Notes: a model not told the origin generated them from the sequence alone. A DNA stretch of 64,000 nucleotides from Octopus sinensis (GCF_006345805.1 NC_042997.1:126728001-126792000); one strand, 5' to 3'. Positions 17,974 to 62,834 are shown, numbered from the stretch's first letter. Program-made: numbers and translations.

Positions 17974-18019
17974 AACACCATGTTTCGGCTGATATACCCT
18001 CCAATCTTCATCAGGTGTC
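17974..18019 (-). ncRNA. Decayed minimal type-I hammerhead ribozyme
   Basis: GACAC CUGAUGA A GAUUG..CAGCC GAAA C AUG GUGUU. The cleavage triplet is mutated to AUG. Confidence 0.6.
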
Positions 18020-18380
18020 TTGATGAAATTTCGAACCTGGGTTCTCATTCCTAAGGTATTTATTAATGTTGTTATTATTATTATTGGCACATAAAAAAAA
18101 CCATCTGAGCGTGGCCGTTCGCCAGCCTCGTCTGGCACCTGTGTCGGTGGCACATAAAATCACCCACTACACTCTTGGAGTGGTTGGCGTTAGGAAGGGC
18201 ATCCAGCTGTAGAAACACTGCCAGATCTGACTGGCCTGGTGCAGCCTTCGGGCTCCCCAGACCCCAGTTGAACCGTCCAACCCATGCTAGCATGGAAAGC
18301 GGACGTTAAATGATGATGATGATGATGATGATTATTATTATTGTTATTATTGTTATTTTTATTATTATTATTATTACTAT

Positions 18381-18570
18381 TATTCAGGTCACTGCTTGGA
18401 ATCGAATTCGGAATCTTGGAGTTAGTAGCCAACGCTCTTAACCACTATGCCTTATGCCTAGCCTGCACTCTTCACCACTACGCTATATACCATGGGCATA
18501 TGGCATAGTGGTTAAGAGTGCGAGCTACTGATCGCAAGATTCCGAGTTTGATTCCGAACAGTGAGCTGAA
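18381..18570. mobile_element. Head-to-head pair of ~80-bp tRNA-like short SINEs
   Basis: 18381-18455(-) and 18493-18570(+) share GGCATAGTGGTTAAGAG.G..GCTACT..C.CAAGATTCCGA.TT.GATTCC. A partial third head lies between them. Confidence 0.7.
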
Positions 18571-18680
18571 TGACGATGACGATGACGATGACGATGACGA
18601 TGACGATGACGACGAAGAAGAAGAAGAAGAAGAAGAAGAAGAAGAAGAAGAAGAAGAAGAAGAAGAAGAAGAAGAAGAAG

Positions 18681-19055
18681 TCTGAGCTGAATGCGTATAA
18701 TAAGGTGTTAGCCATAAATTCCTTAGCAGTCCCAGATGTGCTTTATAGCTTCAATGTGCTTAACTGGAATACCAGTGAAATAATGAAAACTGACAGAAAA
18801 ATTCGCAAGCTACTGACTTGTAATAAGATGCACCATCAAAAGGCAGACGTGGATCGTCTTTACCTTCCCAGAGCTCAGGGAGGACGAGGTTTGATCCAGC
18901 TTGAACTTACGTACAAAACCACCACAATTGGACTGGCCAAATACCTTGAAGCAACCAACGATTAGATGCTAAAACTTGTTGAAAAACATGAAAGACCGAA
19001 AAAACTTCACTCTATTCTCAAAGAGAGCAAAAAATTCGCTACTGATCTCTTAGAT
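18681..19055 (+). mobile_element. R4/Dong-clade non-LTR retrotransposon RT-thumb fragment
   Basis: SELNAYNKVLAINSLAVP..YSF..W..DRKIRKLL..HHQKADVDRLYLPRAQGGRGL, with one in-frame stop. Confidence 0.85.
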
Positions 19056-21221
19056 ACCTACCAGATCGATCAGGCAGTACTGGCAATGACTATGCTCAAA
19101 TGGTGTTTTCTACATGCCACCAGTTTGTACACCCACCTCTTGACAACCAGTATTAGTTTGTTTATGTCCTTGTAACTTAGCAACTTAGCAATCATTTCAG
19201 CAAAACAGACAGATAGATTAAGTACCAGGCATTCAAAAAGAAAAAAAGAAAGAAAAAAAACAAACAAAAAAACAAAAACAAAGCACTGGTGGTTGATTGG
19301 TTTGACTAAAACCCACTAATGTGGTGCCCCGACACGACTACAACCCGGTGACCGAAACCAGCAAAAAAATAAAGATACGACCTGCTACTAGAAGAAAGTT
19401 ACCTTTATCTGGCCTAAATATTACATTGTGCATATCTGTGTATTACATACAGTATTGAATTCTTCATAGCTTATTATGCAATGGCTAAGCAATATACTGC
19501 AAATCTCATTGTGACATATGCAATATTAAAATTATTTCTCAAGTGCTCTGCAACATATATCGAAGTATCCAAGTGATAAAGCTATCATGCAACATCTGTC
19601 ATAGCTGATATGACGCAGATTGCATGCAATTTGCATCATGTTGCAGATATTGAAATGCTGCACAATCCGTGCATGCAATGGTAATGCTGTATTCAGGGCA
19701 TTATATAATTTTATCTTTTGTTTGTTTTCGGTCATTGAACTGTGGCAATGCTGGAGGCACTGCCCTGAAGGATTTTGTTCAAGCAAATTGACCTCAGGAG
19801 TTGTTATGTTTTTAAGGTTAGTGCTTAGTGTTTTGTGTTTAGTGTTTAGTGTATTGTTCTCTTTTGGTGTACTGCTAAGTTACAGGGAGGTAGACAAACC
19901 AGCAACTGTTGTCAAGTGGTGAGTAGACAAAGCCAAGCACACACACAAACACATACAAACAGAGACACAGACACATGCCCTCACACATACACACTCATAC
20001 ATACACTCACACTCACTCACACACACACACATACACTCGCACATGCACATACACACACACACACATGCGATCACATGCTCTCACACACATACCCTCACAC
20101 ATACACATTCATGCACACTAACACACACACACACTCACACATTCACACACATGCTGTCACACACACACACTCATACATACACTCACACACACACTAACAC
20201 ACACACTCACACATTCACACACACACACTCACACACACATGCACACACAAATATGATGGGCTTCCACATAGTTTCTTATTTCTTTATTGCTTACAAGCGG
20301 CTAAACATAGAGTGGACAAACAAGGACAAAGAGTTTAAGTTGATTACATCGACCTGAGTGCGTAACTGGTACTTAATTTATTGACCCCAAAAGGATGAAA
20401 GGCAAAGTCGAACTTGACGGAATTTGAACTCAGAACATAGCAGCCGAGCAAATACTGATAAGAATTTCGCCCAGCGTGCTAACATTTCTGCCAACTCACC
20501 TGTGTGGCTTCCACACAATTTCTGGTTACCAAATTCACTCACAAAACACTGGTTGGAGCAGGGCTATAGCAGAAGACTACTTCCTCAAATGTCATGAAGA
20601 AGGACTGAACCTGAAGCCATGTGGATGCAAAGCAAGTTCCTTAACCACACAGCCATACGTGCACCTTCATCTGTATTACAATGTACCCCACAAAAAGTGA
20701 TGGTACCTTTATACTACTCTGTACTTTGCATTAGTATGTGGCTGCACCTGACATTGCATCAAACACTGCCACTGCAATAAGAGATCCCTTATGCAATTGA
20801 TAAATGTCGCCTGACTGGCACCCATGCCGGTGGCACATAAAAAGCACCATATGGGCGTGGTCATTGCCAGTGCTGCCTGACTGGCACCCGTGCATATAAA
20901 AAGCACCATGTGAGTGTGGTCAATGCCAGTTGCTGCTCAACTGGCTCCCATGCCTGTAGTGTGTAAAAAGCATCATTCGATCATGGTCGATACCACCTGA
21001 CTGCCCTCCACCCCATGCTGGTGGAACGTAAAAAGCACCCGCTACACTCTCAGAGTGGTTGGCATCAGGAAAGGCTGTAGAAACCTTGCCAGATCAGATC
21101 GGAGCCTGGTGCAGCCTCCTGGCTTGCCAGTCCTCAGTCAAACTGTCCAGCCCATGCCAGCATGGAAAACAGATGTTAAACAATGAAGATGATAATGATG
21201 ATGATGAGAACTTGCAAACTT

Positions 21222-60244: not shown

Positions 60245-61707
60245 TATATGCTGAACCACCTCCCGAAGACTGTAAAGAACGGAACACTACTGGTATCTTT
60301 CGATGTGGTGAATCTATACAATAATATCCCACACGACTATGCTATAGAAGCAATTACATTTTGGCTAGAAAAATACCCAGAAGAGATCCCAGGACGAATT
60401 AACCACAATTTTATAATTGAAGCACTGAAATTCGTCCTGTTGAACAATCATCTCTTGTTCGATACTACTTACTATCGATAGAAATGCGGAATTGCAATGG
60501 GGACCAGAGCTGCTTCAGTGATTGCAAACCTCGTAATGGGTTACAACGAACTTAAGTTATACCAATCATCACTAGAAAAATATGGCGCCTCTTTTAATTG
60601 CTACTTAAAGGAGAACTGGAAGAGATATTTAGATGATTGCTTCATACTTTGGAAAGACAGCATGGATCAACTCCTTGACTTCAAAAGAATGCTCAACAAA
60701 TACACAGCAATATACAATTCACTATGGAACACAACAGTAAGCAACTCCCTTTTCTAGACATCTTAATTAGAATAGTTAACAGCCACATAGAAACAGTCAT
60801 CTTTTATAAACCGACAGATTCTAAACAATACCTATTATTTAACTCCTGCCACTCCAAACTCATAAAAATCAACATACCCTTTAACCTAGCAAAAAGAATC
60901 TGCACCATAGTTTCCGATACATACACTCGAGAACATAGACTCCTTGAACTTAGATCTACACTAACTAAAAGACATTACCCAATCTCATTAGTAAATGAAG
61001 GCATCAAAAGAGCTAAGGAAATAGATATACAAAGGTTAAGGAAAACTAGCCGAAATACTAAACAAGACTTAAAAATACTCCCGTACATTTCCACACATAA
61101 CCCCAGAAACAACGAAGCCTTCAACATCATCACCCAAAACCTTCCCATCCTCACAGCAGACAAAACAATGAACGAAATTTTAAGCTCATATAAAATTATA
61201 AAAAGCAAAAAGCAACCGAAGTCACTGAAAAAAATATTAACCAGCGCTAGACTGTATCCACCAACAACAGAGCCAAAAGTGACAAGATGTGGTCGTTCTA
61301 ACTGTGGAACATGCCCCAACCTTCTGGAGGGTTCAGAATTCCATTTCAAACAAGGAGAAATATTTAAGATCAAATCAAATTTCACCTGCGCCTCAGTAAA
61401 TGTAATCTATATCATGACATGCATAGGATGCGGTAAACTCTATATTGGACAAACAAGAATTTCGCTCCGTCAAAGAATCACCATTCACAAAGAGCAAATC
61501 CGTCATCCACAATACAGACAGTTAAAGGTGAGTGCACACATAGAAAGATGTGCCAGGAATCTTAATCCCAATTTCCAAATATTTCCCTTTTACCAATGTT
61601 CACAGAACACCGCAATGCAACAAAGGTTGAATAAAGAGGCATTTTTCATCAATAAATTTCTCCCCCAACTAAACATGAACACACAACTCAATACAGAACA
61701 CCACTAA
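60245..61707 (+). mobile_element. 5'-truncated Penelope-like retroelement: RT plus GIY-YIG endonuclease (one stop, one frameshift)
   Basis: LVSFDVVNLYNNIPH, GIAMGT, WKRYLDDCF, LPFLD, YKPTD..YL..SCH, a CxxxxCxxC linker, and FTC.S.NVIYIMTCIGCGKLYIGQT..R..H. Confidence 0.95.
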
Positions 61708-62193
61708 CTCTTCAATTAAAACCACTAACCCCTATACACTTCCTACACCACTCACATCTCTAAATCCAGAACTACTTACCTCCCTTACAAATAATCTTTT
61801 TTCTCAGGAACTATTAGACCTGACACCGTGTATCAACCGGTGTTGTTCAAACGATGAATAGATTCGCGTAAATCCTGGTCCGTTTTGTTCTCTTACTTTA
61901 TTATCATCTTATAATCATTTCATAATAATGACTTTTATGACTCGCATTACCACCTCAGTCAATCTAAATGTATATATTTGTCGTTACCTGTCATAAATAG
62001 CCTTTTTTTATTTGTAATGTGCAGTTTCGTTGATTTTTCATATTTTACCCTTACATTTCCAGGTGTATTTTATATTTTCTTTTCGTAACATATTTCTACT
62101 ATATATATATATATATATATATATATATATATATTATATATATATATATCCATATATAAAATCAAAATAAGCAACAAAGATATCCAGAGGTAA

Positions 62194-62280
62194 TGCAGTA
62201 CGATCGTTTCATGCAACTCCATTTAATTGAACAATGCAATCATTACATCAATTCAAAATGTAGAGCAATCTTCAGCTGCA
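62194..62280 (-). ncRNA. Type-I hammerhead ribozyme with long stem II
   Basis: UGCAG CUGAAGA uUGC..GCAu GAAA C GAUC GUA CUGCA. Palindrome ACGAUCGU, with U.U at the base of stem II. Confidence 0.8.
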
Positions 62281-62787
62281 CAAAGGCATATAATTTAATT
62301 AAATTAGAACAGATGAACACATTAGTATATTTATACCTAAAATCGCCAAGAAGTTAGGGAGATAGACAAAGAACATATTGTTTCTACTTCAGCATAAAAG
62401 TTACTAAAATTATGAAGAAGACTCTGCCTGCCACTGATTTTTTGTTTTTATGGGGTCAGTTTTAATTTATAGACTAGTTTATCAAATCCCTTGTATATCT
62501 AAGGCTGAGAGAACAGAGGGCAGTATGAAATACAGAAGGAAGTAAGAGAATGATAATAGAACTGAGATATGTAAAGATATTGTATTTGCAGTTCCATTAT
62601 TCAAGTAGAAGTGTGTATATATGTGGTACAGGAAACTTCTTCACCACTTATATACACCATTCTACTTGTATAATGGAACTGCAAATACAATATACCTATG
62701 TATCTCACTTTTATTTTTATTCTTTTACTTCCCTCTATATTTCATATCTTCTCCACAATAATTAATACTCAAACATTTTCTCGCACC

Positions 62788-62834
62788 GTCTCGAGGAAGG
62801 GATATATAAAATATCCTGGAAACAGCTGTAAGAC
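62788..62834 (+). ncRNA. Minimal type-I hammerhead motif with a 1-nt core deletion
   Basis: GUCU C-GAGGA a GGGAUAU-auaaa-AUAUCCU g GAAA C AGCU GUA AGAC. Confidence 0.7.

What the first reader, a model, noticed from the sequence alone, without database searches (positions are those of the whole stretch)
17974..62834. Diverse dispersed population of type-I hammerheads with self-complementary stem III in short non-coding units
Seen: motifs at 17974(-), 26376(-), 27171(+), 36286(-), 37909(+), 38166(-), 41608(+), 52729(+), 62194(-) and 62788(+). Their flanks and stems are mostly unrelated, but the core is shared and stem III usually carries a palindrome (CAUG, ACAAUUGU, ACGU, ACAUGU, CAGCUG, ACGAUCGU). 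Most sit in 150-550-bp units bounded by (TA)n, in a window holding two Penelope RT/GIY-YIG fragments. Established: Penelope-like elements and retrozymes carry minimal type-I hammerheads that cleave as dimers through a palindromic stem III. Inference: this is a dense (about 1 per 6 kb) set of solo pseudo-LTRs or retrozyme-like RNAs. The different palindromes may act as family-specific dimerisation codes.
Basis: partly seen in the sequence, partly recalled or inferred. Interest (0 to 1): 0.75.

Follow-up and report, generated by a model that had tools for sequence, protein, structure and literature searches.

The report
Hammerhead tails of many Penelope retrotransposons
The scattered motifs are mostly worn copies of hammerhead-shaped RNA motifs from ten high-copy repeat families, some shown and the rest likely to be tails of Penelope-type jumping genes, a published arrangement; the fresh part is one lineage that swaps a core base pair through three non-standard forms while keeping it paired, so these likely self-cutting RNAs escape standard searches.

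Summary
Nine of the ten listed motifs are real type I hammerheads of eight repeat families (277-3,332 first-look candidates each); 41608 has no hammerhead core. Three more were missed: 37299(-), 26905(-) and 61849(+), the last in the 3' UTR of the window's Penelope ORF. Copies share 3' ends, are variably 5'-truncated, sometimes inverted and never in tandem arrays in the loci seen. Families D, H and K run into GIY-YIG coding sequence. So they are solo pseudo-LTR remnants (Cervera 2014), not retrozymes. Most window copies are decayed. New details: in the K lineage pair 3-8 is A-U (50), U-A (11) or G-C (7) of 73, never C-G; I found only U3-A8 in print. The scan noted A3-U8/G3-C8 before in another genome. 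Rare substitutions are halved in the core (p 0.0002), which suggests selection during spread. Cleavage is untested, and no cut-site footprint was found.

The parts
17974..18019 (-). Family F hammerhead (CUGAUGA, 21-nt stem II domain, family stem III ACGU); window copy decayed (U16.1 to G). Unit about 17886-18086
26374..26442 (-). Family I hammerhead, U3-A8 core, U-U at base of stem II, family stem III ACCAAUGGU (odd length, not a perfect palindrome); window copy decayed. Unit about 26291-26459
26905..27009 (-).
27172..27276 (+). Family C hammerhead, 79-nt branched stem II domain, 2-bp proximal stem I, family stem III ACGAUCGU (window copy ACAAUUGU by CpG decay). Inverted pair spans about 26852-27434
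36286..36320 (-). Family G hammerhead with U4C as the family majority (CCGACGA), stem III ACGU; matches family. Unit about 36177-36356; no ORF link found
37299..37382 (-). Unit about 37170-37547
37908..37978 (+). Family A hammerhead, decayed copy (unit about 37790-38130, short inverted piece 37741-37782)
38165..38251 (-). Family D hammerhead, intact core, 58-nt stem II domain, stem III ACAUGUGU (self-complementary with G-U pairs)
38523..38648 (-). C-terminal end of a GIY-YIG endonuclease with Hydra-clade-like CxxC/CxH motifs, directly upstream of the family D hammerhead (unit 38108-38648)
40757..40948 (+). GIY-YIG remnant of an old Penelope-like element whose 3' UTR (to about 42300) contains position 41608
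41608..41642 (+). Not a hammerhead: hairpin-like stretch in an old Penelope 3' UTR; no core in the family
52728..52850 (+). Family E hammerhead, 97-nt stem II domain, family stem III ACAGCUGU (window copy damaged). Unit about 52338-53230; no ORF link found
60203..61707 (+). 5'-truncated Penelope-like ORF (RT part plus GIY-YIG; stop-free frame 60679-61707), lineage K; a full-length relative has GLKF, DKG and a CX4CxxC linker (Neptune/Nematis type)
61849..61885 (+).
62193..62281 (-). Family A hammerhead, matches family (6-bp stem I, U-U at base of stem II, ACGAUCGU, GUA site); unit 62157-62526, inserted in opposite orientation at the (TA)n tail of the K element
62788..62834 (+). Family H hammerhead (family CUGAUGA, ACAGCUGU); window copy has a one-base core deletion. 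Unit about 62625-62900

Best explanation
The motifs are type I hammerhead sequences in mostly decayed copies of ten high-copy repeat families, three of which (D, H, K) run directly into Penelope-like endonuclease coding sequence and the rest of which are likely 5'-truncated Penelope tails too; in the source elements they are predicted to cut the RNA mainly as homodimers. Shown: families, shared 3' ends, 5' truncation, ORF link for D, H and K (weak for C and I), self-complementary stem III, covariation of the 3-8 core pair and of stem I. From the literature: Penelope elements insert as truncated, inverted or partial-tandem copies, often in (TA)n, and their hammerheads cut weakly and as dimers. 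Inferred: a transcript with two pseudo-LTRs pairs its two palindromic stems III; each core is then completed by the other copy's NUH and stem I strand, so a partner must match in both stems; the core was under purifying selection while the families spread. Solo genomic copies such as those in this window are mostly inert by-products.
For: Family alignments give complete hammerheads. 5' ends form a truncation ladder (A -116 to -1319, D -34 to -1140, H -47 to -1031) while 3' ends cluster. 27 of 30 D-type endonuclease loci carry the family D motif about 180-400 nt downstream; a full-length sister element has a 778-aa frame between two hammerhead-bearing direct repeats plus an inverted copy (L415). 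H reaches an EN end in 2 of 20 loci, C in 1 of 25. 80 of 86 K-type loci show the motif region; 73 could be parsed. Inverted second copies in 23 of 160 loci (3 pairs counted twice), direct in 2. Monomer stem III hairpins are unstable or impossible (+0.4 to +6.0 kcal/mol in 10 of 13, no hairpin in 2, -0.9 in 1), homoduplexes are -1.7 to -15.9. Rare core substitutions: 26 observed against 54.7 expected, base-matched; column permutation p 0.0002, lower in 8 of 9 families. Cervera 2014 (PMC4209133) reports the same pattern of solo and inverted motifs.
Against: No same-strand ORF link for A (0 of 30 loci, though copies reach 1.3-1.6 kb upstream), B (0 of 25), E, F, G (0 of 20 each). No cleavage data. 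Secondary copies do not start at the predicted cut (no peak at +1 in 12 queries), and two full-length D-sister elements start their upstream repeat elsewhere. Predicted paired positions of stem II are no better conserved than unpaired ones (171 against 179 expected). Families have spread with U4C (G; the D-sister copies in L415/L416), A6U (G-sister, 16 of 30 non-anchor copies) or an extra base in GAAA, which are expected to slow cutting. The core-conservation test used top BLAST hits and matched single bases only, not sequence context.
Confidence: 0.85

Rival explanations
1. Some families (A, B, E, F, G) are non-autonomous, non-coding elements that borrow Penelope enzymes, rather than tails of coding elements.
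For: No ORF link in 115 loci of these five families. Family A shares 1.3-1.6 kb of upstream sequence with no recognisable ORF. G is young (94-98% identity), about 200-250 nt, and most copies start within a narrow band.
Against: Loci reach only 1.5 kb upstream and Penelope 3' UTRs can be long (H reaches its EN about 1.3-1.5 kb upstream). Only three protein queries were used. Some G copies extend further 5'. Same truncation and inversion pattern as D and H.
Confidence: 0.3
2. They are metazoan non-LTR retrozymes: tandem 150-400-nt repeats that give circular RNAs.
For: Short non-coding units with type I hammerheads; U-U at the base of stem II as in axolotl HHR_Amex2 (PMC7229834, passage).
Against: No multimers; direct second copy in 2 of 160 loci; no such array among Tandem Repeats Finder rows; 5' truncation ladder and ORF links.
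Confidence: 0.07
3. The palindromes were selected as family-specific codes that prevent cross-dimerisation between co-resident families.
For: Stem III is self-complementary in 9 of 10 families (I has one central unpaired base) and keeps symmetry through length changes in lineage K (ACCGGU, ACCGCGGU, ACCAUGGU, ACCAAUUGGU). With stem I included, only E-H among 78 hetero pairs has both a stable stem III duplex and 3-bp stems I in both directions.
Against: Four palindromes are shared between families; I cross-pairs with K in stem III (-7.4, -8.3 kcal/mol); unrelated sequences are orthogonal by default; dimers can form in cis between the two repeats of one transcript, so no avoidance is needed.
Confidence: 0.1
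4. The hammerheads are passengers: catalysis is dispensable and the fold, or only its palindrome, is kept for another use such as RNA pairing during reverse transcription.
For: Families spread with U4C, A6U or GUAAA; A3-C8 mismatch in 4 of 73 K copies; no cut-site footprint; Craig 2021 (PMC8557442, passage) raises this option.
Against: Core substitutions are halved; pair 3-8 changes on both sides at once, keeping Watson-Crick pairing in 68 of 73 copies, and this pair belongs to the active fold.
Confidence: 0.2

Closest known systems
Hammerheads in pseudo-LTRs of metazoan Penelope-like elements (Cervera and De la Pena 2014, PMC4209133; read: parts 1-2 of 4 and passages of supplementary file 2; file 1 not searchable)
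   Same: Type I topology, extra base after A9, palindromic stem III, many heterogeneous families per genome, mostly solo motifs, inverted pairs 100-700 bp apart, U3-A8 variant, 2-bp helix I (D. virilis); molluscan examples (Lottia, Crassostrea) are in the supplement.
   Different: Stem II domains of 41-97 nt in six families; palindromes up to 12 nt; A3-U8 and G3-C8 cores; 2-bp stem II with variable loop; U4C and A6U as family-level states.
Natural core variants (Perreault et al. 2011, PMC3088659; read: abstract, section 8, passages; supplements not read)
   Same: U3-A8 covariation, U4C, U10.1-U11.1 mismatch, 2-bp stem II and a U inserted in the GAAA strand (U13a) are all described.
   Different: The text names only U3-A8 as natural 3-8 covariation; here one lineage shows A-U, U-A and G-C. 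The extra base here follows G12 in my alignment; whether it is the same position as U13a I could not see (figure not held).
Penelope-associated dimer-cleaving hammerhead variants (Lunse, Weinberg, Breaker 2016/2017; not held, known only from citation in PMC6765202 and recall)
   Same: Short palindromic stem III, cleavage as dimers.
   Different: Could not check whether A3-U8, G3-C8 or long stem II forms are among its variants.
Neptune/Nematis and Hydra clades of EN+ Penelope-like elements (Craig et al. 2021, PMC8557442; read: passages and section 11)
   Same: K has DKG and a CX4CxxC linker; D has DKT and CxxC/CxH around the conserved E and N; (TA)n insertion, inverted and partial-tandem copies, tail at one end.
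   Different: Clade names rest on motifs, not on a tree with reference elements; D has IRW where Hydra is described with RWK.
Metazoan non-LTR retrozymes (Cervera and De la Pena 2020, PMC7229834; read: passages)
   Same: Type I hammerheads in non-coding repeats.
   Different: Those are tandem repeats of 170-400 nt giving circular RNAs; these are dispersed, truncated, sometimes inverted and ORF-linked.

Membership tests
Type I hammerhead ribozyme | Core CUGANGA ... GAAA ... NUH in type I order, with three stems | tested here: met
   Families A-F and H in majority form; G has U4C, I has U3-A8, K has non-C-G pairs at 3-8. Not met for 41608.
Type I hammerhead ribozyme | Watson-Crick pair between positions 3 and 8 | tested here: met
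   68 of 73 parsed K copies (A-U 50, U-A 11, G-C 7; A-C 4, A-A 1); one A-U row (L350) is a doubtful match.
Type I hammerhead ribozyme | Self-cleavage at NUH | not testable with these tools
   No raw RNA reads; no genomic footprint found.
Type I hammerhead ribozyme | Match to an Rfam hammerhead model | tested here: inconclusive
   No hammerhead family among the 150 listed of 250 matches at E up to 5; 100 weaker rows were not shown.
Penelope-like element pseudo-LTR | Lies 3' of an RT plus GIY-YIG ORF on the same strand | tested here: met
   Met for D (27 of 30 EN loci; window copy too), K (80 of 86), H (2 of 20).
Penelope-like element pseudo-LTR | ORF link for families A, B, C, E, F, G, I | tested here: inconclusive
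   C 1 of 25 and I 1 of 15 (weak, E 2e-4); A, B, E, F, G 0 of 115 loci with 1.5-kb flanks.
Penelope-like element pseudo-LTR | 5'-truncated, inverted or partial-tandem insertions with a fixed 3' end, often at (TA)n | tested here: met
Penelope-like element pseudo-LTR | Palindromic stem III suited to dimer cleavage | tested here: met
   9 of 10 families self-complementary; energies; dimer cleavage itself untested.
Non-LTR retrozyme | Head-to-tail tandem repeats of 170-400 nt, one hammerhead each | tested here: not met
   Direct second copy in 2 of 160 loci, no multimers.
Non-LTR retrozyme | Abundant circular RNA joined at the cut site | not testable with these tools
   Only contigs were offered.

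The most novel reading that the evidence does not exclude
One animal retrotransposon lineage has walked the hammerhead's hidden 3-8 core pair through A-U, U-A and G-C while never using C-G, and dispersed copies of nine families show purifying selection on the catalytic core. Self-cleavage would then be required for Penelope spread, with stem I plus stem III pairing making each family cut only with its own kind, and a large class of purine-3 hammerheads (tens of thousands of hammerhead motifs in this genome alone, by extrapolation) would sit unseen by standard searches.
Probability: 0.4. Interest if true: 0.65.

Novelty: new variant of a known kind. Interest (0 to 1): 0.4.

Why it matters
The function of Penelope hammerheads is an open question (needed for processing, or passengers). 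This genome offers a natural mutational series in one lineage (three compensatory 3-8 pairs, symmetric changes of the palindrome, a GAAA insertion) and sister families with U4C and A6U, which can be assayed directly, plus a population-level sign of selection on the core. It also shows why CUGANGA descriptors undercount: the only hammerhead attached to the window's own Penelope ORF was missed for that reason. The basic finding, a dense mixed population of solo Penelope hammerheads with palindromic stem III, is already published for other animals.

Tried and rejected
Rfam scan: dominated by microsatellite matches to miRNA models, no hammerhead among the listed rows. 41608 as a hammerhead: rejected. 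Family A as the pseudo-LTR of the adjacent Penelope ORF: rejected; it lies on the opposite strand, and in the 29 other K loci homology to the window stops at or before the (TA)n tail. Cut-site footprint in 5' ends of secondary copies and of full-length elements: none; SINE neighbours contaminate several of those lists. Sequencing runs: no RNA holder listed; laying four contig sets on a young K element gave nothing on ends or expression. RT at 1915-2349(-) and the frame at 51447-52415(-) were not hit by the three Penelope queries and look like RTE-type LINE pieces (recalled resemblance; Pfam RVT_1 and PHD only). Literature: 9 searches; none returned a natural A3-U8 or G3-C8 hammerhead; PMC3884650 (passages) mentions an engineered G3-C8 variant. 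Lunse et al. and the Terminon paper were not seen, nor figures, so 'not in print' is provisional. The stem I pair counts printed are partly mis-registered (13 rows cut inside the palindrome) and were not used; stem I covariation is read.

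
Full report
Setting. The window is G000:C1:126728001-126792000 of a 2.72-Gb animal genome, rich in (TA)n, SINE-like and LINE fragments. I call it octopus-like from recalled repeat types and earlier scan notes; no call names it.

Observation. All ten coordinates hold the described letters. A strict type I descriptor finds 2 motifs against 0.08 in shuffles (0 of 60 reach 2). 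A wider one that allows any Watson-Crick pair at 3-8 finds 3, all self-complementary in stem III, against 0.27 and 0 in 30 shuffles. Few listed copies pass because most are decayed, so I searched the genome with each unit. First-look candidates: A (62194 and 37909, one family) 1,769; B (37299, new) 1,076; C (27171) 277; D (38166) 2,158; E (52729) 606; F (17974) 3,332; G (36286) 2,253; H (62788) 1,390; I (26376) 1,047; J (41608) 20. Only the best 40 (20 for J) were scored and 15-30 loci kept per family. Alignments give complete hammerheads for A-I and none for J. Family stems III: A and C ACGAUCGU, B ACUAUGCAUAGU, D ACAUGUGU, E and H ACAGCUGU, F and G ACGU, I ACCAAUGGU. CpG sites diverge 17% against 5% elsewhere. 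Stem II domains are 12-97 nt and fold back as long hairpins or branched domains in prediction. Core intact in 160 of 216 aligned copies; core plus family stem III in 114 of 216.

Density. In 60 evenly spaced 10-kb stretches (599,800 bases) the descriptor finds 5 self-complementary motifs with stem I of 4 bp or more (0 in 5 shuffles) and 10 with 3 bp or more (1-2 in shuffles). The ten family models find 30 copies there (G including sister families) and 13 in the window. That extrapolates to roughly 10^5 copies of these families and a few 10^4 intact-looking motifs genome-wide. The window is on the rich side, partly because its own families defined the models.

What the units are. 3' ends cluster and 5' ends form a ladder in A, D and H. 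Long D copies run into a GIY-YIG frame (Pfam E 0.011, below cut-off). Conversely 27 of 30 loci found with that protein carry the D motif about 180-400 nt downstream, and the window copy itself is preceded by an endonuclease end at 38523-38648. A sister element has an intact 778-aa frame flanked by two hammerhead-bearing direct repeats and an inverted copy (L415); its DKT and CxxC/CxH motifs fit the Hydra clade as described in PMC8557442 section 11. H reaches a related EN end in 2 of 20 loci, C in 1 of 25, I weakly in 1 of 15; A, B, E, F and G in 0 of 115. Second copies within 1.5 kb are inverted in 23 of 160 loci (three pairs were fetched from both ends) and direct in 2. This matches Cervera 2014, which reports solo motifs, inverted pairs, many families and palindromic stem III, and not tandem retrozymes.

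The window's own Penelope element. The ORF at about 60203-61707 (GIY-YIG E 4e-7) is not the parent of 62194, which sits antisense at its (TA)n tail. Its 3' UTR has no CUGANGA, but holds at 61849 a variant motif: stem I AAACG/CGUUU, core AUGAAUA, 2-bp stem II, G-U-AAA, palindromic stem III. Among 86 related loci (45-100% protein identity) 80 show the motif region and 73 were parsed: pair 3-8 is A-U in 50, U-A in 11, G-C in 7, A-C in 4, A-A in 1, C-G in none. An eighth G-C copy (L334) was seen by eye; six other rows could not be parsed; one A-U row is doubtful. On a protein tree of 71 rows U-A is one side of a well-supported branch (99), A-U occurs in two supported groups, and G-C is nested among A-U rows with weak resolution, so at least two double changes occurred; copies are not independent events. 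Stem I also changes in pairs (AAGAAAU/AUUUCUU, AUAUC/GAUAU, AAAGCA/UGCUUU, AAACG/CGUUU, AAGCG/CGCUU), and stem III changes symmetrically from 6 to 10 nt. A separate G3-C8 motif with a 7-bp stem I turned up once in the random sample (L366). Perreault 2011 names only U3-A8 as natural covariation, and also U4C, U-U at 10.1-11.1, 2-bp stem II and a U inserted in GAAA. Nine literature searches found no natural A3-U8 or G3-C8, but Lunse et al. was not held. An unreviewed scan note (e1-9866753) reports both in another genome; I read it after finding them here.

Mechanism. Monomer stem III hairpins are impossible or unstable in 12 of 13 families or subfamilies, while homoduplexes give -1.7 to -15.9 kcal/mol; B and the window's K subfamily could also fold alone. 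In a double hammerhead each core uses the partner's NUH and 3' strand of stem I (established model), so both stems decide pairing. Stem III alone is shared in four pairs of families. With stem I added, only E-H of 78 hetero pairs stays compatible both ways. This orthogonality needs no selection, so the 'code' is a by-product until shown otherwise.

Selection. After removing CpG sites, gap neighbours and non-homologous stretches, substitutions seen in one or two copies number 26 in core cells against 54.7 expected from base-matched loop and flank cells; stem III 15 against 24.9 (p 0.04); paired stem II 171 against 179. Column permutation gives p 0.0002, with the core lower in 8 of 9 families. 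This suggests that part of the copy diversity arose in source elements that needed the core. Limits: top-hit sampling, and single-base matching only. Against a strict need for fast catalysis: G is mostly U4C (18 of 20 aligned copies CCGACGA), a G-sister family has A6U (16 of 30 non-anchor copies), and a young D-sister has U4C. No pile-up of 5' ends at the cut site was found. The RNA search listed no RNA holder and only contigs.

Verdict. The retrozyme and palindrome-code readings are not supported. The phenomenon is published for other animals, and the scan has many hammerhead notes in this genome (212 fit the word). The added value is the 3-8 series in one lineage and the sign of selection on the core. 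New variant of a known kind; interest 0.4.

Noticed in passing
window 30751-31317: Fold-back element with 258-nt arms (93% complementary); looks like a Mariner-derived inverted duplication by recalled resemblance.
   Followed up: no
L370, L387, L390, L413 and other loci: A sister family of G has CUGUNGA (A6U) with otherwise good stems I, II and ACGU in 16 of 30 non-anchor copies; 4 copies in 600 kb of random sequence.
   Followed up: partly
L366:216-270: Isolated G3-C8 hammerhead with 7-bp stem I, 5-bp stem II and AAUAUU palindrome, apparently outside lineage K.
   Followed up: no
L224, L337, L338, L343 (3' UTRs): G3-C8 copies that also carry GAUA in place of GAAA (A14U).
   Followed up: no
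L414-L416, L311-L313: Young Hydra-like Penelope family with intact 778-aa frames; hammerhead has U4C and a perfect ACAUAUGU palindrome where family D has ACAUGUGU.
   Followed up: partly
window 61810-61840; L181-L210: A conserved hairpin lies just 5' of the K hammerhead; it could make a tertiary contact with the tiny stem II loop.
   Followed up: no
L231-L233: Family A extends 1.3-1.6 kb upstream with internal duplications and no recognisable ORF.
   Followed up: partly
random and flank loci: Further hammerhead families with 8-12-nt self-complementary stems III (ACGUACGU, ACUGACGUCAGU, ACCUUGCAGGGU, ACGGUGCAUCGU) and 16-100-nt stem II domains.
   Followed up: no
window 1915-2349(-), 51447-52415(-), 18570-18965(+): LINE-type RT and C-terminal fragments, not Penelope; RTE-like by recalled resemblance.
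   Followed up: partly
window 60100-62970: Three Penelope-type insertions (K, A, H) are packed within 3 kb at (TA)n runs, in alternating orientation.
   Followed up: partly
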